Shown here piece by piece: positions 11,977 through 16,519 of a stretch of 64,000 bases of DNA. Under the pieces are notes generated by a model, which did not search any database, was not told where the DNA came from, and worked only from the letters and a program-made list of their open reading frames with translations. Position 1 is the stretch's first letter, and every line of letters begins with the position of its first letter. The DNA is from a virus. Lineage: Duplodnaviria > Caudoviricetes. The position numbers and the translations under genes are program-made. The stretch lies in IMG/VR virus record IMGVR_UViG_3300044266_000349, positions 11,149 to 75,148 of that record. One strand, 5' to 3'.

Positions 11977-12005
11977 AACCCCGCTTCGGCGGGGTTTTTT
12001 ATTTT
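11977..12005 (+). terminator. rho-independent terminator with cUUCGg loop
   Basis: AACCCCGC-TTCG-GCGGGGTT then TTTTATTTT. Confidence 0.92.
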
Positions 12006-13677
12006 ATACTACTCTTGTGCTATAAACAAGCATTCTTCTGAATGTGGGCTCAGTATTTCTTACCGAGATTTTATCCAATTTGAATAAATCTGGTTGTGAT
12101 ATTTTCTTTATTATCTTTGTTGGTTCTTGTTTGTTGACAACTGTTTTTTCTAAAGGATTTACCGGATTCAAGAACTGTCGAATATTTAAATCTTGATTTT
12201 CTTTTGACATTGAAGTGACAGCCTGGCTAACCTTTGTGGAATCCATAGCTTGTATTCTTGGTTCTTCATTCTTAACTAAATTTTCTACTTTTAGTGTTTG
12301 TTTCAAATTACCTTCTTTGTCATATTTGTCACCGTATTGACTATCCCATTGTTTTTGTGCCTGCGACAGTTTATTTTTTTCCATCTGATATTGTACAGCA
12401 CCAACTTTACCAACTTGTGGCAAAGATGATTCGTCCGGTCTAGCACCTACTTTTTCAGGTAAAGCGACTCCAGATTCAATCTGTTGTGGAGTTAACTTTT
12501 GTGCTGATGGAGTCGTTGCAGAATTTTGACGCAACCATTCTTCTTGTTTTTGTTTTTCTTTAGCCACCAAGTCTTTACGCATACCGCTAGGATCATAATA
12601 TTCTGCAAATTTTTTATCCCAATTAATTGCACGAGCACCTGCACCTTCCGGTCTCGTAGGTACTTCTGTGGCCATATTCTGCATCACTTTAATTGATACT
12701 GGCTGAGTTACGGGACCTCTTTCTTTTAATTCTTTTAGTGAACTTTCCAACTTAGAACGCCCACCTAGCTTTTTCATTTCAGCTTCATCATTACGATCCA
12801 GTATGGCCTGTATTTTTTCTGGTGATCCCAAATCATCAATTATTTTACGTAAGTTTTCTTCACCACCATAATGCTTAATGTCATCTGGTAAACCAGATTT
12901 TAAAACTTCTGCGGCTTCTTGTGCAGATAAAGCCCTTGTATTTGGTGTTGCTTTATTCAACCTATTTAAAAATTCACTTATTGCCATGCCAGCCAATATT
13001 GCAGCACCAAAAGCCAAAAATGCAGGATGCATGAACAGTCTGGCTAACCACGGTCCTATTTTGGAAAGTGCCCGCACCCATTCGAATGCTTGCATAATGT
13101 TTTCTATGAGTCCCATTATTTTTCCAAATGGATCATTTTCTTCAGCTTCTTTTTTACTTGTGACACCAACACCAGAAGATTTTAAAATTGCTTTTATGAG
13201 TTCGTCATGCCTCTTTTGTTTTTCATTCTGTTCTTCTTCTTTGAAATTCTGTAATTTTTCAAATCGCAACATATCTTTTTCATGTGTTTTTTTCATGAAA
13301 TTAAATATGCGTTGTAACATTGCCGTATTTTGAGCTTGTGCCTGACCTTTAACAGCAGTCGCACTATTAACTTTACCGACATTACCGCCGGCTATATTTT
13401 TTAACAGTCGAGCATTTTGTGCAAAATATGTTATGTCTTTCTGACTTCTACCTAAAGCTTTACCTAAAAGTGCTGGACCCAAACTTGAACCGCCAGTCAA
13501 AGCTTTAGCCATGTTTAGTGGATCAAATTTTTCTTTAATGCCTGTAACATGCGCTTTGAACTTTTCAGAAATGCCGGCTTTAAATGATTCTTTAATAGAT
13601 TTGCCGGAAGTAATTTCTGTTGCTATTACATCAGAGAGCTTTCTAGCTCTTATATTTGCGGCTTTACGGTATTCCAT
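12004..13677 (-). CDS. putative baseplate hub / tape-measure protein (gp29-like)
   Basis: ATG 13677 follows previous stop; helical low-complexity protein with central hydrophobic segment; downstream of gp26/gp51. Confidence 0.6.
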   Translation of the reverse strand: MEYRKAANIRARKLSDVIATEITSGKSIKESFKAGISEKFKAHVTGIKEKFDPLNMAKALTGGSSLGPALLGKALGRSQKDITYFAQNARLLKNIAGGNVGKVNSATAVKGQAQAQNTAMLQRIFNFMKKTHEKDMLRFEKLQNFKEEEQNEKQKRHDELIKAILKSSGVGVTSKKEAEENDPFGKIMGLIENIMQAFEWVRALSKIGPWLARLFMHPAFLAFGAAILAGMAISEFLNRLNKATPNTRALSAQEAAEVLKSGLPDDIKHYGGEENLRKIIDDLGSPEKIQAILDRNDEAEMKKLGGRSKLESSLKELKERGPVTQPVSIKVMQNMATEVPTRPEGAGARAINWDKKFAEYYDPSGMRKDLVAKEKQKQEEWLRQNSATTPSAQKLTPQQIESGVALPEKVGARPDESSLPQVGKVGAVQYQMEKNKLSQAQKQWDSQYGDKYDKEGNLKQTLKVENLVKNEEPRIQAMDSTKVSQAVTSMSKENQDLNIRQFLNPVNPLEKTVVNKQEPTKIIKKISQPDLFKLDKISVRNTEPTFRRMLVYSTRVV

Positions 13678-13678
13678 T

Positions 13679-15004
13679 TTAAGACATTCCTTGTGACTTT
13701 TCAATTATCGCAGGAGGAACGTATCTTACTTTTTCCGATCCTCTGCGCGCTGCAGGTGGTACAATAGCTGTTTGTGTGGGTGCTTGTGGCGTATTTCCTT
13801 CCAACTTTGCAGTTGTTTGTATACTTTGTTTAAGGTCCTTATTTTCTTTTGCTGCAGCAGATATTTTATCCGATATATTACCTGGAGGAGCAGGTACAGC
13901 TTCAGGAACCGCATCTACTCCTTTTCCTGCAAATTTACCCGAACCTTCATCGACACCTGTTTGGCCAGTAAATTGTAAGTGAAAATGGCCGCCCGTAGCA
14001 TGTGCGGAGGGTCTGGCATATTCATCAATTACATAACCACCAGTTTGTTGTGCAAGTTTTTGTGCAAATTGTTGCCTTAAATCATCATTCGTGGCAATCT
14101 CTTTGGGTAATACAAAATCTACCGCAAGACCTTTTGTGTGTAATGAATTTGGAGCTTTTTCTGTGTGGAATTGGTCGTTGAATCCTGTGAACACAACACC
14201 CGGAACACTGTCTTTCACAACACCTGCTGCTTTTATAACAGTAGGTGAAATAAATGCTCTTTCTCTTTGTGTTGCACCAACTTTAATATTAAATCCCATA
14301 CGAGATAGATCATCTTCAGAATACGAATTGTCGGATGATGGTATCGTTGAAGTCAGCGCAGCTCCGCCTAATATTCCAGCTGTGATACCAATCTTTGAAG
14401 TGAATTTTGATGATGAAAAAGTGGGAATTCCAGATGAAATTTTTGGTGTGGTTCTGGGGCTTGTTATTTTTTTACCAGAAATAAAAGTTTTTTTCGTTGA
14501 TATTGGTCTGGTATATGGTTTTTTCTTAGTTTTAGGTTTAGATTCTGCTGATTTTTTTGGTCTGCTGGTTTTAATTTGTGTTGTTTTCTTCGGCGCCGCA
14601 GCCATACTGTTCACCGATTTATTATTTTCTCGTTTCTTTTTTTCCGGTAAAGATTTGGTAGTTTTCGAATCTTGTGGTTCTGCAATAGATTGCTCTATTT
14701 TATTTTGTTCTTTTTGTGCTCTGTCTGTCGTATCTTGATTGGCCGAAATTTTTTCTCCAAAGGCATCCAGTAATTCTTTATGTCTCTTATTTTCCAATAT
14801 ACCATCAAGTTGGTTTCTCTTTTCTTCTATCTCAAACTGTAATTGTTTAACTTCTTCCGCATCGAGCAAGAATTTATAAATTTTATCCAAAATTGTAGTT
14901 TGAGGAGAAACACTTTCCACATTTTCTGGAAGCGAATTAAAATTGAGCAACGAAGACACAATCGTCTTCATTGCATCTGATACGACAGGCTTTGCTGTTT
15001 CCAT
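13679..15004 (-). CDS. putative hub/tape-measure-associated protein with M15-type zinc peptidase domain
   Basis: SLHTKGLAVD (H-x6-D) and GGHFH (HxH) motifs; Lys-rich linker; follows gp51. Confidence 0.65.
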   Translation of the reverse strand: METAKPVVSDAMKTIVSSLLNFNSLPENVESVSPQTTILDKIYKFLLDAEEVKQLQFEIEEKRNQLDGILENKRHKELLDAFGEKISANQDTTDRAQKEQNKIEQSIAEPQDSKTTKSLPEKKKRENNKSVNSMAAAPKKTTQIKTSRPKKSAESKPKTKKKPYTRPISTKKTFISGKKITSPRTTPKISSGIPTFSSSKFTSKIGITAGILGGAALTSTIPSSDNSYSEDDLSRMGFNIKVGATQRERAFISPTVIKAAGVVKDSVPGVVFTGFNDQFHTEKAPNSLHTKGLAVDFVLPKEIATNDDLRQQFAQKLAQQTGGYVIDEYARPSAHATGGHFHLQFTGQTGVDEGSGKFAGKGVDAVPEAVPAPPGNISDKISAAAKENKDLKQSIQTTAKLEGNTPQAPTQTAIVPPAARRGSEKVRYVPPAIIEKSQGMS

Positions 15005-15196
15005 TTATTTTTTTCTCTGCATCTCTTTTAATTTTTGATTTTCTTCCTCAATATACTGTATTAATAAATTCACATAAATGTCTCTCTCCCACGGCAACAT
15101 ATTTTCGAGTTCGGTCAAGCTATATTTGTGGTGTTGCATTAAGGAGAAGTTCGTTGTATAATAGTTTCTCAAATCATCATGACGAAGTATTAACCG
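15005..15196 (-). CDS. gp51: baseplate hub assembly protein gp51-like reading frame (not in ORF track; probably reached by -1 frameshift from gp26)
   Basis: Frame reads RLILRHDDLRNYYTTNFSLMQHHKYSLTELENMLPWERDIYVNLLIQYIEEENQKIKEMQRKK*; first ATG at 15139 has no SD. Confidence 0.8.
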   Translation of the reverse strand, partial: RLILRHDDLRNYYTTNFSLMQHHKYSLTELENMLPWERDIYVNLLIQYIEEENQKLKEMQRKK

Positions 15197-15915
15197 AAAA
15201 AACTTTCGAGCCCTTCCACATCAATATTGTGGTCGAATCCACATTTACCACACTTCATACGAATAGTTTGTTTTAATCTTGGTAAATTTGTAAAGAATTT
15301 TTCTACCTGATTGAATTGGTCTTGTCTCATAGACTCTATAAAATCTTGCAATTCTTTTGTTGTCTGTTCTTTTGCATAATAATATTGCTCGCCATCATAA
15401 ACCCATTCAATACTCTGTGCAATCAAAGCAAATGTAAGATCGTTTGCATTATCATATTTTGAAAAATTCTTAATGAAACCAAATTCAGGATACTTAAATT
15501 TTATGGTCAATTTATCGTCCAGTTTAATTTCAGGTCCAACTTCTTCATTCATTTCAATTTTCATGTCAAGAAGATTTAATTTGTGTTCCATCAATCCACC
15601 ACATTCTTTATTGTCTACAATGTTGGTGCATTTATATTTTGAATCGACAACCTCACCAACTGACCGTGCTCTGAGATTGATAAAATAATATTCAATGTCA
15701 ACGATTGGCAAAACATCAATATTTACATTGTCAGTTAATGTACAGTTGTTCAGAATATCCTTGACTGCTCTCTGTACATCTTCCCCTTCATTTGATTCCA
15801 TCGCCATCAAAAGATTCTTTTGTTCTTTGACAAGAAATGGTCTAAATTTAATTTTTTTCTTGGAAACAGGAAGTTTCAATTCATAGGTTGGTGTATCAAT
15901 TTTCGGCAAAGCCAT
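15190..15915 (-). CDS. gp26: baseplate hub assembly protein
   Basis: MALPKIDTPTYELKLP...KFRPFLVKEQK N-terminus; C-terminal CxxC then EGLESFF. Confidence 0.9.
   Translation of the reverse strand: MALPKIDTPTYELKLPVSKKKIKFRPFLVKEQKNLLMAMESNEGEDVQRAVKDILNNCTLTDNVNIDVLPIVDIEYYFINLRARSVGEVVDSKYKCTNIVDNKECGGLMEHKLNLLDMKIEMNEEVGPEIKLDDKLTIKFKYPEFGFIKNFSKYDNANDLTFALIAQSIEWVYDGEQYYYAKEQTTKELQDFIESMRQDQFNQVEKFFTNLPRLKQTIRMKCGKCGFDHNIDVEGLESFFG
15196..15202 (-). promoter_or_regulatory. candidate -1 slippery heptamer U UUU UUC
   Basis: gp26 ends GAA AGT TTT TTC GGT TAA; -1 slip enters the open gp51 frame. Confidence 0.7.
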
Positions 15916-15937: not shown

Positions 15938-16519
15938 TTAAATACCAGTTAGTGTTCGTTGTAATGAAGCTGGTGAAGTAAAATCCTTTTGTGAACTCGA
16001 ACGCCAGTAGGTATAGGCAAAAGTAACTAAAAGTTTGTGAAACCCATCACTTGACCAATCCAAATCTAATTGATTAATAGAAATAGGATAAGCTTCAAAC
16101 AACTGCACGGAATATGTTAGATCATCCAATGTGTTGTATTGGTTTATAGTTAAGATAGTGTCATAATCTTTTCTGTATGAAAAATCGTTTGTTTGCGTTG
16201 GGTTTATTATCTCTAACCAACTATCAAATATCTTTTTCTCACTCATCGCACTTTCAACAATCAATGTTAAATCAATATCGTTGTAAGTGGTCAAATATGG
16301 AAGTTTTTGTATAGGTCCATATGTTTTTTGTTCTGTTGTGGCCAGTGTTCTACCGGGAAGTTGAGCATTTTCACATCTAAAAGCTAATTGACGAGCAGCA
16401 AAAGTATCAACTGAAGTGGAAGACACCACTTTAGGTGGAACAGGTATCAAAACATTAAAACGATTTTGTCTGGCCAAATCACCCTTAAAACTATTTTTGA
16501 AGTCGGTTAAACTAGGCAT
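15938..16519 (-). CDS. gp54: baseplate tail-tube initiator (tube fold)
   Basis: LARQNRF, CENAQLPG, EAYPISI..LDLDW, VTFAYxYW. Confidence 0.75.
   Translation of the reverse strand: MPSLTDFKNSFKGDLARQNRFNVLIPVPPKVVSSTSVDTFAARQLAFRCENAQLPGRTLATTEQKTYGPIQKLPYLTTYNDIDLTLIVESAMSEKKIFDSWLEIINPTQTNDFSYRKDYDTILTINQYNTLDDLTYSVQLFEAYPISINQLDLDWSSDGFHKLLVTFAYTYWRSSSQKDFTSPASLQRTLTGI

What the first reader, a model, noticed from the sequence alone, without database searches (positions are those of the whole stretch)
15005..15230. Candidate programmed -1 frameshift fusing gp26 to gp51: a lambda G/GT-like chaperone pair in a T4-like phage
gp26 ends E-S-F-F-G* on AGT TTT TTC GGT TAA, which contains the canonical X XXY YYZ heptamer U UUU UUC. 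A -1 slip continues into RLILRHDDLRNYYTTNFSLMQHHKYSL..., the gp51-like frame. That frame is open for 19 codons before its first ATG, which has no SD (preceded by TTCTCCTTA). Predicted products are 241 aa and 303 aa. The pair lies directly upstream of the tape-measure-like genes, where tail-assembly-chaperone frameshifts are established in lambda and many other long-tailed phages. I do not know of this being described for T4-like phages; the short gp51 is normally annotated as a separate gene.
Basis: partly seen in the sequence, partly recalled or inferred. Interest (0 to 1): 0.82.

Follow-up and report, generated by a model that had tools for sequence, protein, structure and literature searches.

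The report
Frameshift in T4-like baseplate-hub chaperone gene
One tail-assembly gene of this uncultured marine T4-like phage very probably makes a 241-residue and a 303-residue protein, because some ribosomes slip back one base on a strictly conserved TTTTTTC. Phage T4 makes the same pair from two separate genes (26 and 51), so this would fill the one reported gap ("except T4") in the tail-chaperone frameshift of long-tailed phages.

Summary
gp26 (window 15190-15915, minus strand, PF12322) ends AGT TTT TTC GGT TAA. The -1 frame is open from the heptamer T_TTT_TTC (15196-15202) to 15005 and encodes the short "gp51".

Evidence that this is a programmed -1 frameshift:
- All 165 evaluable related loci carry the heptamer. 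In 121 unique gp26 sequences its three third positions show 0, 0 and 2 T/C changes on the tree, against 5-25 at 18 control sites. The residue before FF varies (D/S/N) but always ends in T.
- The 19 codons between the heptamer and the first ATG are conserved as protein, never hold a stop, and hold almost no start codons. That ATG is missing in 9% of sequences.
- T4-type gp51 is a gp26-family domain plus this same C-terminal segment in one frame.
- Two-gene phages (5/5) have non-slippery gp26 ends. Heptamer phages have a single PF12322 gene.
- The first 90 residues of gp26 match only the three solved tail assembly chaperones.

No conserved stimulatory RNA structure was found, and no product has been shown. 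No paper or GenBank record I examined reports the slip. Other agents of this scan reached the same reading on at least 173 other genomes. Confidence is about 0.8.

The parts
15190..15915 (-). gp26, the short form (241 aa): baseplate-hub assembly chaperone. It has an N-terminal tail-assembly-chaperone-like domain (residues 1-90) and a Cys-containing middle and C-terminal domain. The zero-frame stop TAA is at 15192-15190.
   Evidence: PF12322 at E 1.1e-60 and phrog_150 at 6e-64. The AF2 model has pLDDT 85.7. Its top three structural matches are the three solved tail assembly chaperones.
15196..15202 (-). Slippery heptamer T_TTT_TTC (X_XXY_YYZ), made of the last base of codon 238 plus Phe239 and Phe240 of gp26.
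   Evidence: Read directly. It is invariant in register in all 165 evaluable relatives. On the tree there are 0, 0 and 2 T/C changes, against 5-25 at 18 control sites. U_UU.U_UU.Y is among the efficient -1 motifs in E. coli (PMC4066793).
15005..15196 (-). The -1 frame extension, 63 codons plus the stop at 15007-15005. This is the 'gp51' C-terminal domain, RLILRHDDLRNYYTTNFSLMQHHKYSL...; base 15196 is read twice. The long form (303 aa) is codons 1-240 of gp26 plus this segment.
   Evidence: It matches phrog_634 from its second residue (3.9e-29) and the tail of phrog_150. It aligns to T4-type gp51 residues 201-244 (E 3e-6).
15140..15193 (-). The last 18 of the 19 start-less codons between the heptamer and the first ATG (the first, CGG, spans 15196-15194, giving 19 in all). 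They do not overlap the gp26 reading frame beyond its last codon and its stop.
   Evidence: In 107 unique sequences there are no stops in the -1 frame, while 107/107 have stops in the zero frame. Codon-position entropy is 0.68/0.43/1.11 bits. Conserved residues: R 95%, H 96%, L 99%, N 92%, Y 93%, T 93%, N 99%, F 100%. Start codons are nearly absent.
15137..15139 (-). First in-frame ATG of the -1 frame (the M of LMQHH). It is the rival independent start, has no Shine-Dalgarno sequence, and lies inside the conserved domain.
   Evidence: Seen. It is ATG in 97 of 107 unique sequences and ATA, ATT or GTA in the rest. The aligned T4 gp51 residue is Val.
15170..15172 (-). TTG that the ORF listing takes as the start of a 55-aa ORF. 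It is a Leu codon of the conserved DxL motif.
   Evidence: Listed. The column is TTA 53, CTG 26, TTG 16 and CTA 8, which is synonymous Leu variation and not a conserved start.
13679..15004 (-). Next gene (441 aa). Its ATG directly follows the gp51 stop. It carries an M15-peptidase-like domain at about residues 226-361.
   Evidence: tblastn to endolysin-like domains of jumbo phages, E 7e-8. Atlas structural leads to Peptidase_M15. No Pfam or PHROG hit.
12004..13704 (-). Second downstream gene (566 aa), a candidate gp29-type tape measure. This is a lead only.
   Evidence: Atlas feature score 0.90 to a cluster that is 100% PF25671 T4_Tape_measure. No match in the phage collection, Pfam or PHROGs.
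15938..16519 (-). Upstream gene (193 aa) of the tail-tube family, in the gp54/gp19-like position.
   Evidence: PF23849 at 2e-6 and phrog_45 at 2.5e-37. The same position is annotated gp54 in nt-1 and AsFcp_4.

Best explanation
gp26 and 'gp51' of this phage are one recoded gene. Most ribosomes translate gp26 to its stop and make the 241-aa short form. A minority slip back one base while the two Phe-tRNAs sit on U_UUU_UUC. Those ribosomes continue in the -1 frame and make a 303-aa long form, which is gp26 residues 1-240 plus the 63-aa gp51 domain.

The two forms would act as a lambda G/GT-type pair of assembly chaperones for the baseplate hub and tail tube, with the long form needed only in small amounts. 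T4-type phages obtain the same two forms from two paralogous genes, 26 and 51.

What is shown:
- The sequence anatomy.
- Nucleotide-level selection on the heptamer.
- Protein-level selection on the start-less -1 codons.
- The matching architecture of T4 gp51.
- The complementary distribution of heptamer phages and two-gene phages.
- The tail-assembly-chaperone fold of the gp26 N-terminal domain.

What is inferred:
- That the slip happens on ribosomes.
- Its efficiency.
- The partners of each domain.
For: 1. Anatomy. The heptamer is in X_XXY_YYZ register one codon before the gp26 stop, and the -1 frame is open from it.

2. Heptamer conservation.
- All 156 loci with a recognisable gp51 motif, plus the 9 evaluable loci that my motif search missed, carry T_TTT_TTY in register.
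- In 121 unique gp26 sequences the codons are NNT 121/121, TTT 121/121, and TTC 115 / TTT 6.
- The residue before FF is D 60, S 40 or N 21.
- All six other conserved Phe columns are polymorphic, with TTT at 60-91%.
- On a tree of length 22.5, the heptamer's third positions need 0, 0 and 2 T/C changes. The 18 control NNY columns need 5-25.

3. Coding upstream of any start.
- The 19 -1-frame codons before the first common ATG are conserved as protein with synonymous variation.
- None of the 107 unique sequences has a stop there.
- Codon-position entropy is 0.68/0.43/1.11 bits.
- There is almost no ATG, GTG or TTG in these codons.
- The ATG itself is absent in 10 of 107.

4. The PHROG gp51 profile matches from residue 2 of the -1 segment, and the gp26 profile phrog_150 extends into it.

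5. T4-type gp51 (RB27, 249 aa) is PF12322 at residues 1-201 (E 4e-55) followed by a segment that aligns to the -1 peptide from its first residue (E 3e-6). The junction VF-K-LLVNPDE corresponds to FF-R-LILRHDD.

6. Complementary distribution.
- PF12322 occurs twice in RB27 and DP45.
- It occurs once in P-SSM2, nt-1, AsFcp_4, Melnitz, Cr30, RSP15 and EniLVp02.
- Five of five two-gene Straboviridae have non-slippery gp26 ends.

7. The Aeh1-like AsFcp_4 has the heptamer and an unannotated, start-less 65-aa gp51-like -1 ORF. Aeh1 is the one phage in which gp51 was reported missing (PMC3037559).

8. In two independent models, the top three of 48,161 PDB chains are the three solved tail assembly chaperones 2ob9, 3klu and 3fgx. 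Z is 6.8-7.5 over about 85 residues, and the next match has Z 4.3-4.9 (their identity checked in PMC9603447).

9. U_UU.U_UU.Y is among the efficient -1 motifs in E. coli and is used by IS elements (PMC4066793).
Against: - No conserved downstream hairpin or pseudoknot was found. The alifold energy is about 0 in both clades, and the mean z-scores are +0.26 and -1.45. No conserved upstream Shine-Dalgarno-like element was found either, so efficiency may be low.
- No protein, ribosome-profiling or reporter data exist for any member.
- 91% of sequences do have the internal ATG. Cyanophages and vibriophages have an ATG at or just after the gp26 stop, so some independent or coupled initiation cannot be excluded there.
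- The FF dipeptide is itself conserved, so part of the T-run is forced by the protein.
- Ackermannviridae relatives have the -1 ORF without the full heptamer.
- The structural Z-scores (about 7) lie in the range the tool calls middling.
Confidence: 0.8

Rival explanations
1. gp51 is an independent small gene. It is translated from the ATG at 15139 (44 aa), from the TTG at 15172 (55 aa), or by termination-reinitiation after the gp26 stop. On this reading the T-run merely encodes a conserved Phe-Phe.
For: All 12 annotated GenBank records I examined either list gp51 as a separate CDS or leave it unannotated, and none shows a joined feature. The ATG is present in 97 of 107 unique sequences. Cyanophages, Cr30, RSP15, nt-1 and EniLVp02 have an ATG overlapping or just after the gp26 stop.
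Against: - The window has no Shine-Dalgarno sequence before either candidate start.
- The ATG lies inside the conserved domain, is replaced by Ile or Val codons in 10 of 107 sequences, and aligns to Val in T4 gp51.
- The 19 upstream codons are under protein-level selection with no start available.
- The third-position T of the codon before FF, and the TTT and TTC choices, are fixed against codon usage.
- In two-gene phages the same FF is encoded non-slippery.
- In T4 the domain only exists fused to a gp26-like domain.
Confidence: 0.1
2. The long form is made by transcriptional slippage. RNA polymerase adds one U in the U6 run, giving an mRNA in which gp26 and gp51 are in frame. The protein would be the same as with ribosomal slippage.
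For: The site is a homopolymer. A few relatives have T7 or T8 (L158, L159, L163). Rare in-frame fused ORFs exist in metagenome assemblies (P0004, P0010), and these could reflect length heterogeneity of the run.
Against: - Six U is shorter than the runs of about 8-9 known to give useful transcriptional slippage (my own knowledge; PMC4066793 discusses U7 and A7).
- The run is held at exactly six T followed by C in 95% of sequences, and in codon register, which fits tRNA re-pairing.
- All 80 relatives fetched with the fused P0004 as query, at 51-94% identity, have T6 and the frameshift. The fused ORFs therefore look like homopolymer indel errors.
Confidence: 0.06
3. There is no functional long form. 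The -1 ORF is a decaying remnant, or the conservation reflects an RNA or DNA element.
For: No experimental product is known. The C-terminal extension is modelled with only moderate confidence (pLDDT 56-75).
Against: - The variation has codon periodicity, and no stop occurs in 107 unique sequences spanning very divergent clades.
- The domain is retained in T4-type gp51, which is essential (PMC3004832).
- No conserved RNA structure was found.
Confidence: 0.02

Closest known systems
Phage T4 gp26 (208 aa) and gp51 (249 aa), baseplate hub assembly chaperones (Leiman et al. 2010, PMC3004832, Table 2)
   Same: Same protein family: PF12322 in the window gp26, in T4-type gp26 and in the N-terminal 200 residues of T4-type gp51. 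The window's -1 peptide aligns to the gp51 C-terminal 45-50 residues. The short/long pair has the same architecture. gp51 is essential, absent from the virion, and described as catalytic, which fits a low-abundance long form.
   Different: T4-type phages encode the two forms as two diverged paralogous genes on opposite strands. Gene 26 is followed by gene 25, and its Phe-Phe codons are not slippery. Here a single gene would give both forms, so their N-terminal 240 residues are identical.
Lambda gpG/gpGT and the conserved -1 frameshift of tail assembly chaperone genes in long-tailed phages (Levin 1993; Xu, Hendrix and Duda 2004; reviewed in Atkins et al. 2016, PMC5009743)
   Same: A -1 slip on an X_XXY_YYZ heptamer close to the 3' end of a chaperone gene, giving a short form and a C-terminally extended form. 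No strong stimulatory structure is present. The gene lies in the tail module, upstream of a candidate tape measure. The gp26 N-terminal domain matches the three solved tail assembly chaperones (HK97 gp13, YqbN, Rbstp2171).
   Different: There is no detectable sequence similarity to gpG or gpT. gp26 is about twice as long and has an extra Cys-rich domain. The heptamer is U_UUU_UUC, not G_GGA_AAG. One gene (441 aa) lies between it and the candidate tape measure. In T4 the function is assigned to hub assembly rather than tube polymerisation. Binding partners are untested. The review states that the G-T frameshift is conserved 'except T4'.
Cyanophage and vibriophage short 'gp51' (T4-GC 12; Sullivan et al. 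2010, PMC3037559)
   Same: It is the same ORF. That paper noted these gp51 copies lack the first ~200 residues yet keep the C-terminal similarity, and that gp51 is missing in Aeh1.
   Different: The paper treats it as a truncated independent gene and mentions no frameshift. The frameshift reading supplies the 'missing' 200 residues from gp26 and recovers the Aeh1-type copy.

Membership tests
Programmed -1 ribosomal frameshift site | X_XXY_YYZ heptamer in the zero-frame register that allows both tRNAs to re-pair | tested here: met
   AG[T TTT TTC] at 15202-15196. U_UU.U_UU.Y is listed among the efficient motifs in E. coli (PMC4066793).
Programmed -1 ribosomal frameshift site | The -1 frame is open from the slip site and encodes a conserved polypeptide that lacks its own start | tested here: met
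   No stops in 107 unique sequences. The 19 start-less codons are conserved and show codon periodicity.
Programmed -1 ribosomal frameshift site | The slip site is conserved at synonymous positions across relatives | tested here: met
   0, 0 and 2 changes against 5-25 at 18 control columns in 121 unique sequences. All 165 evaluable loci carry the heptamer.
Programmed -1 ribosomal frameshift site | Stimulatory element: a downstream hairpin or pseudoknot, or an upstream Shine-Dalgarno-like sequence | tested here: not met
   No consensus structure in either clade, and z-scores near 0. The upstream GARGG is specific to one clade. Lambda G/GT also works without such an element (my own knowledge), so this feature is common but not obligatory.
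Programmed -1 ribosomal frameshift site | The trans-frame protein is detected | not testable with these tools
   This needs mass spectrometry, a reporter assay or ribosome profiling.
Tail assembly chaperone G/GT pair | Tail-assembly-chaperone fold (the spiral fold of Pell et al. 2013) | tested here: met
   Residues 1-90 of two independent models match 2ob9, 3klu and 3fgx as the top three of 48,161 chains. Z is 6.8-7.5 over about 85 aligned residues, and the next match has Z 4.3-4.9. Z is middling in absolute terms, so this is good but not conclusive.
Tail assembly chaperone G/GT pair | The gene lies immediately upstream of the tape measure gene | tested here: inconclusive
   A 441-aa gene with an M15-peptidase-like domain comes next. 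The 566-aa gene after it has only a feature-based lead (0.90) to PF25671 T4_Tape_measure.
Tail assembly chaperone G/GT pair | The short and long forms bind the tape measure, and the extension binds the tube protein | not testable with these tools
   No binding data could be produced with these tools; pull-down or two-hybrid assays are needed.
Tail assembly chaperone G/GT pair | The products are needed for assembly but absent from the virion | not tested
   This is known for T4 gp51 (PMC3004832). It is not known for this phage.
T4 gp26/gp51 family (Pfam PF12322 T4_baseplate) | Significant match to the family profile over its full length | tested here: met
   The window gp26 scores 1.1e-60 over profile positions 2-218 of 219.
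T4 gp26/gp51 family (Pfam PF12322 T4_baseplate) | The gp51-specific C-terminal segment follows the PF12322 domain | tested here: met
   This holds only through the -1 frame. It aligns to RB27 gp51 residues 201-244 (E 3e-6) and matches phrog_634 at 3.9e-29.

The most novel reading that the evidence does not exclude
gp26 and gp51 are the long-missing tail assembly chaperone pair of the T4 superfamily. The ancestral state would be one gene with a G/GT-type -1 frameshift, still used by cyanophages, pelagic T4-likes, KVP40-like and Aeh1-like phages, Cr30 and RSP15. The Tevenvirinae and Acinetobacter lineage would have replaced recoding by gene duplication. T4 gp26 still ends FF-[EKR]-[LY]-[LI], a possible vestige of the junction. 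[quoted passage not shown] Its C-terminal 45 residues would recruit a tube or hub subunit onto the gp29 tape measure.
Probability: 0.55. Interest if true: 0.8.

Novelty: new member of a known kind. Interest (0 to 1): 0.72.

Why it matters
- **It closes a stated exception.** The tail-chaperone frameshift is described as conserved in long-tailed phages 'except T4' (Atkins et al. 2016). This finding suggests the T4 superfamily has it too, and that T4 proper is the derived case, replacing recoding by two genes.
[quoted passage not shown] The role would be the long, low-abundance form of a chaperone pair. This also explains why the marine 'gp51' is only 20% as long.
- **It corrects annotation.** Hundreds of cyanophage, pelagiphage and vibriophage genomes list a 44-60-aa 'baseplate hub assembly catalyst' with an arbitrary start, or miss it altogether, as in Aeh1-type phages.
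- **It offers a natural comparison.** Setting a protein ratio by frameshift can be compared with setting it by two promoters or ribosome-binding sites for the same function.

Tried and rejected
- **Downstream stimulatory RNA.** RNAalifold and MFE z-scores on 110 nt after the heptamer in two clades found nothing conserved. Only P-HM1 shows a GC hairpin 6 nt after the site.
- **Natural in-frame fusions as evidence.** Metagenome proteins P0004 (301 aa) and P0010 (300 aa) read ...DFF-RIALSHDSL... in one frame. However, all 80 relatives fetched with P0004 as query, at 51-94% identity, have T6 and separate frames. I treat the fusions as probable homopolymer indel errors and do not count them.
- **Complex prediction.** Complex prediction of the 65-aa C-terminal extension against the upstream tail-tube-family protein gave no verdict (score 0.00). 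This says nothing either way.
- **Foldseek against PDB** gave no match at E <= 0.001. Only the exhaustive VIA-align search found the chaperone fold.
- **Sequence search of gp26 against PDB** gave nothing.
- **Literature.** Eight searches on gp26, gp51, frameshift, baseplate hub, cyanophage and tail assembly chaperone found no paper describing this slip.
- **Pfam and PHROGs on the 441-aa and 566-aa downstream proteins** gave no hits.
Full report
**Observation**

The genes lie on the minus strand. gp26 is window 15190-15915 (241 aa). It matches Pfam PF12322 'T4_baseplate' at E 1.1e-60 and phrog_150 'baseplate hub' at 6e-64. It ends GAA AGT TTT TTC GGT TAA.

The heptamer T_TTT_TTC occupies 15202-15196 in X_XXY_YYZ register. 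The -1 frame is open from there to the TAA at 15007-15005. It reads FF-RLILRHDDLRNYYTTNFSL-MQHHKYSLTELENMLPWERDIYVNLL...

The first ATG (15139) comes 19 codons after the slip site and has no Shine-Dalgarno sequence. The predicted products are 241 and 303 aa.

TTTTTTC itself is common in this AT-rich window, with 41 copies against 25 expected. The case therefore rests on comparison with relatives.

**What the -1 ORF is**

The 63-aa -1 segment matches phrog_634 'baseplate hub assembly catalyst' (gp51) from its second residue, at E 3.9e-29. It also matches positions 234-276 of the gp26 profile phrog_150.

The window is part of a 75-kb IMG/VR contig, estimated 44% complete, with a single gp26-family gene. 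Its neighbours form a T4-like hub and baseplate module: gp4, gp2, a tail-tube-family protein, gp26/51, and on the other strand gp48, gp53, gp5 parts and gp6.

**Conservation of the slip site**

Two scans of IMG/VR returned 160 loci. The first used gp26 as query and gave hits at 59-70% identity. The second used P0004, a fused gp26-gp51 ORF of 301 aa found in metagenome assemblies (see the negative results below), and gave hits at 51-94% identity. I added the isolates P-SSM2, S-PM2, P-HM1, Melnitz, Cr30, RSP15, nt-1, EniLVp02 and AsFcp_4.

Every evaluable locus has T_TTT_TTY in register, with the gp51 frame at -1 and open from the heptamer. That is 156 loci found by motif plus 9 of the 10 loci that my motif expression missed; the tenth is truncated.

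In 121 unique gp26 sequences the three heptamer codons are as follows:
- NNT in 121/121. The amino acid here varies (D 60, S 40, N 21) while its third base stays T.
- TTT in 121/121.
- TTC in 115 and TTT in 6.

The six other conserved Phe columns of the same alignment are all polymorphic, with TTT at 60-91%.

On a FastTree phylogeny of total length 22.5 substitutions per site, the minimum number of T/C changes at the heptamer's third positions is 0, 0 and 2. At 18 control two-fold pyrimidine columns it is 5-25. This is nucleotide-level selection and cannot be explained by the Phe-Phe dipeptide alone.

**Coding without a start**

In 107 unique -1 segments, the 19 codons between the heptamer and the first common ATG are conserved as protein: R 95%, H 96%, D 81%, L 99%, N 92%, Y 93%, Y 89%, T 93%, N 99%, F 100%, S 82%, L 96%. 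The variation among them is synonymous.

Further points:
- Codon-position entropy is 0.68/0.43/1.11 bits. The part after the ATG gives 0.57/0.21/1.17.
- No sequence has a stop in the -1 frame, while 107/107 have one in the zero frame and 104/107 in the +1 frame.
- ATG, GTG and TTG are nearly absent from these columns, apart from TTG as one of several Leu codons.
- The 'first ATG' is ATA, ATT or GTA in 10 of 107 sequences.

These residues do not overlap gp26, so they can only be under selection if they are translated. The only conserved way into the frame is the heptamer.

**The T4 comparison**

In T4-type phages, gene 51 is not downstream of gene 26. In RB27 it lies on the opposite strand, and gene 26 is followed by gene 25.

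RB27 gp51 (249 aa) is a full PF12322 domain at residues 1-201 (E 4.3e-55). It is followed by a segment that aligns to the window's -1 peptide from its first residue (201-244 against 1-45, E 3e-6). The junction ...DVF-K-LLVNPDEIFTFY... corresponds to ...SFF-R-LILRHDDLRNYY.... T4 gp51 therefore has exactly the architecture predicted for the frameshift product.

Six-frame searches of complete genomes with PF12322 found:
- Two copies in RB27 and Acinetobacter phage DP45.
- One copy in P-SSM2, nt-1, AsFcp_4, Melnitz, Cr30, RSP15, EniLVp02 and SenALZ1.

In five two-gene Straboviridae from five genera, the gp26 3' end encodes the same FF or F-x residues non-slippery: G TTC TTT, A TTT GTT, A TTC TTT, T TTC CTT and A TTC TTC.

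Sullivan et al. (2010) had noted that cyanophage and marine vibriophage gp51 lack the first ~200 residues, and that gp51 is missing in Aeh1. They did not mention a frameshift. The Aeh1-like AsFcp_4 has GAT TTT TTC GAT TGA followed by an unannotated, start-less 65-aa gp51-like -1 ORF.

**Fold**

I made two AlphaFold2 models: the fused homologue P0004 (pLDDT 84) and the window's own gp26 (pLDDT 85.7). Each was compared with 48,161 PDB representatives.

In both searches the top three chains were 2ob9 (HK97 gp13 tail assembly chaperone), 3klu (YqbN) and 3fgx (Rbstp2171). Z was 6.8-7.5 with rmsd 3.2-3.8 Å over 84-86 residues, covering gp26 residues 1-90. The next unrelated match had Z 4.3-4.9.

These three are the solved tail assembly chaperones of Pell et al. 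2013, as stated in PMC9603447. The absolute Z is middling, but the exclusive and replicated recovery of this one family supports the G/GT analogy.

The rest of gp26 (residues 90-235) gives only weak zinc-ribbon and DnaJ-like matches. The C-terminal extension is helical, with pLDDT 56-75.

**Mechanism**

The most likely mechanism is dual-tRNA -1 slippage of tRNA-Phe on U_UUU_UUC, one codon before the gp26 stop. U_UU.U_UU.Y is among the efficient heptamers in E. coli, works above 0.1% without stimulators, and is used by IS elements (PMC4066793).

No conserved stimulatory RNA structure was found, so a low, lambda-like efficiency is expected. That fits the 'catalytic' requirement for gp51 in T4 and its absence from virions (PMC3004832). 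It also fits the 30:1 G:GT ratio in lambda (PMC5009743).

By analogy, the shared chaperone domain would hold the tape measure or hub, and the extension would recruit a tube or hub subunit. This last step is inference only.

**Rivals**

- **Independent or coupled initiation of gp51 (about 0.10).** It remains possible as an additional route in clades with an ATG at the gp26 stop. It cannot account for the start-less conserved codons or for the fixed synonymous sites.
- **Transcriptional slippage on U6 (about 0.06).** It would give the same protein. The run is short and is held at exactly six T plus C.
- **A non-functional remnant (about 0.02).** This is excluded by the coding signature.

**Context claim**

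The downstream 441-aa protein has an M15-peptidase-like domain. The 566-aa protein has only a weak feature-based lead to PF25671 T4_Tape_measure. 'Upstream of the tape measure' is therefore plausible but not established.

**Novelty**

None of the 12 annotated GenBank records I inspected joins the two ORFs. Eight full-text searches found no report of the slip. The recoding review by Atkins et al. (2016) states that the G-T frameshift is conserved in long-tailed phages 'except T4'.

Within this scan, the same reading was reached by other agents on at least 173 other genomes. I came to it independently before looking. From those notes I took only the lead to the 'except T4' statement, which I then verified in the paper.

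**Negative and unavailable results**

- Fused metagenome ORFs (P0004 and P0010) are probably homopolymer indel errors.
- The one complex prediction gave no verdict.
- Foldseek and sequence searches of PDB were blank.

Noticed in passing
L174 (Salmonella phage SenALZ1) 1900-2100; L172 (Klebsiella Taipeivirus); L090 (LIMEstone1): Ackermannviridae gp26 ends GAG ATT TTC ATT TAA, which has no full heptamer and only the U_UUC tetramer. A gp51-like ORF follows in the -1 frame (..DFHLIFEIDLLSYFVMCDELK..). LIMEstone1 has an ATG at the stop (TAATG), but SenALZ1 and the Taipeivirus have ATT there and no annotated start. Each genome has a single PF12322 gene. Tetramer slippage or ATT initiation could explain this.
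   Followed up: partly
L171 (Aeromonas phage AsFcp_4, Aeh1-like) about 1895-2100: There is an unannotated 65-aa gp51-like ORF in the -1 frame after GAT TTT TTC GAT TGA, with no start codon before an internal Met. gp51 was reported as missing in Aeh1 (PMC3037559).
   Followed up: partly
L085, L176, L177, L178 (T4-type gp26 3' ends): T4-type gp26 proteins end FF-[E/K/R]-[L/Y]-[L/I]-stop. These three residues resemble the first residues of the gp51 C-terminal segment (K-L-L or R-L-I). They may be a vestige of a truncated long form.
   Followed up: no
window 13679-15004 (-): This 441-aa protein directly follows gp51. Residues of about 226-361 resemble M15-type peptidoglycan peptidase or endolysin domains of jumbo phages. 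The N-terminal half is Lys- and Thr-rich low-complexity sequence. It may be a hub-associated wall hydrolase, in agreement with another first-stage note.
   Followed up: partly
window 15190-15630 (-), gp26 residues 95-235: The second domain of gp26 carries four conserved Cys, at about C96, about C105, and C222-x2-C225. It gives weak structural matches to zinc ribbons (NrdR, ZitP, ZPR1) and to DnaJ/Hsp40 client-binding domains (Z about 3). T4-type gp51 also scores weakly on zinc-ribbon Pfam models.
   Followed up: no
L003 (P-HM1) 2196-2222: P-HM1 has a GC-rich hairpin (CCCTC TTTCAC GAGGG) starting 6 nt after the heptamer. This is the classic spacing for a frameshift stimulator. It is not conserved in the other clades.
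   Followed up: no
window, whole: TTTTTTC is over-represented: 41 copies against 25.0 +/- 4.2 in dinucleotide-preserving shuffles. None of the other copies was checked for register or for overlapping frames.
   Followed up: no
P0004, P0010, P0012, P0006 (metagenome proteins): These are single-member clusters in which gp26 and gp51 are in one frame, with a junction such as ..DFF-RIALSH.. or ..GFF-RIALSH.. . They are probably T-run length errors or rare T7 variants. Their DNA could not be fetched.
   Followed up: partly
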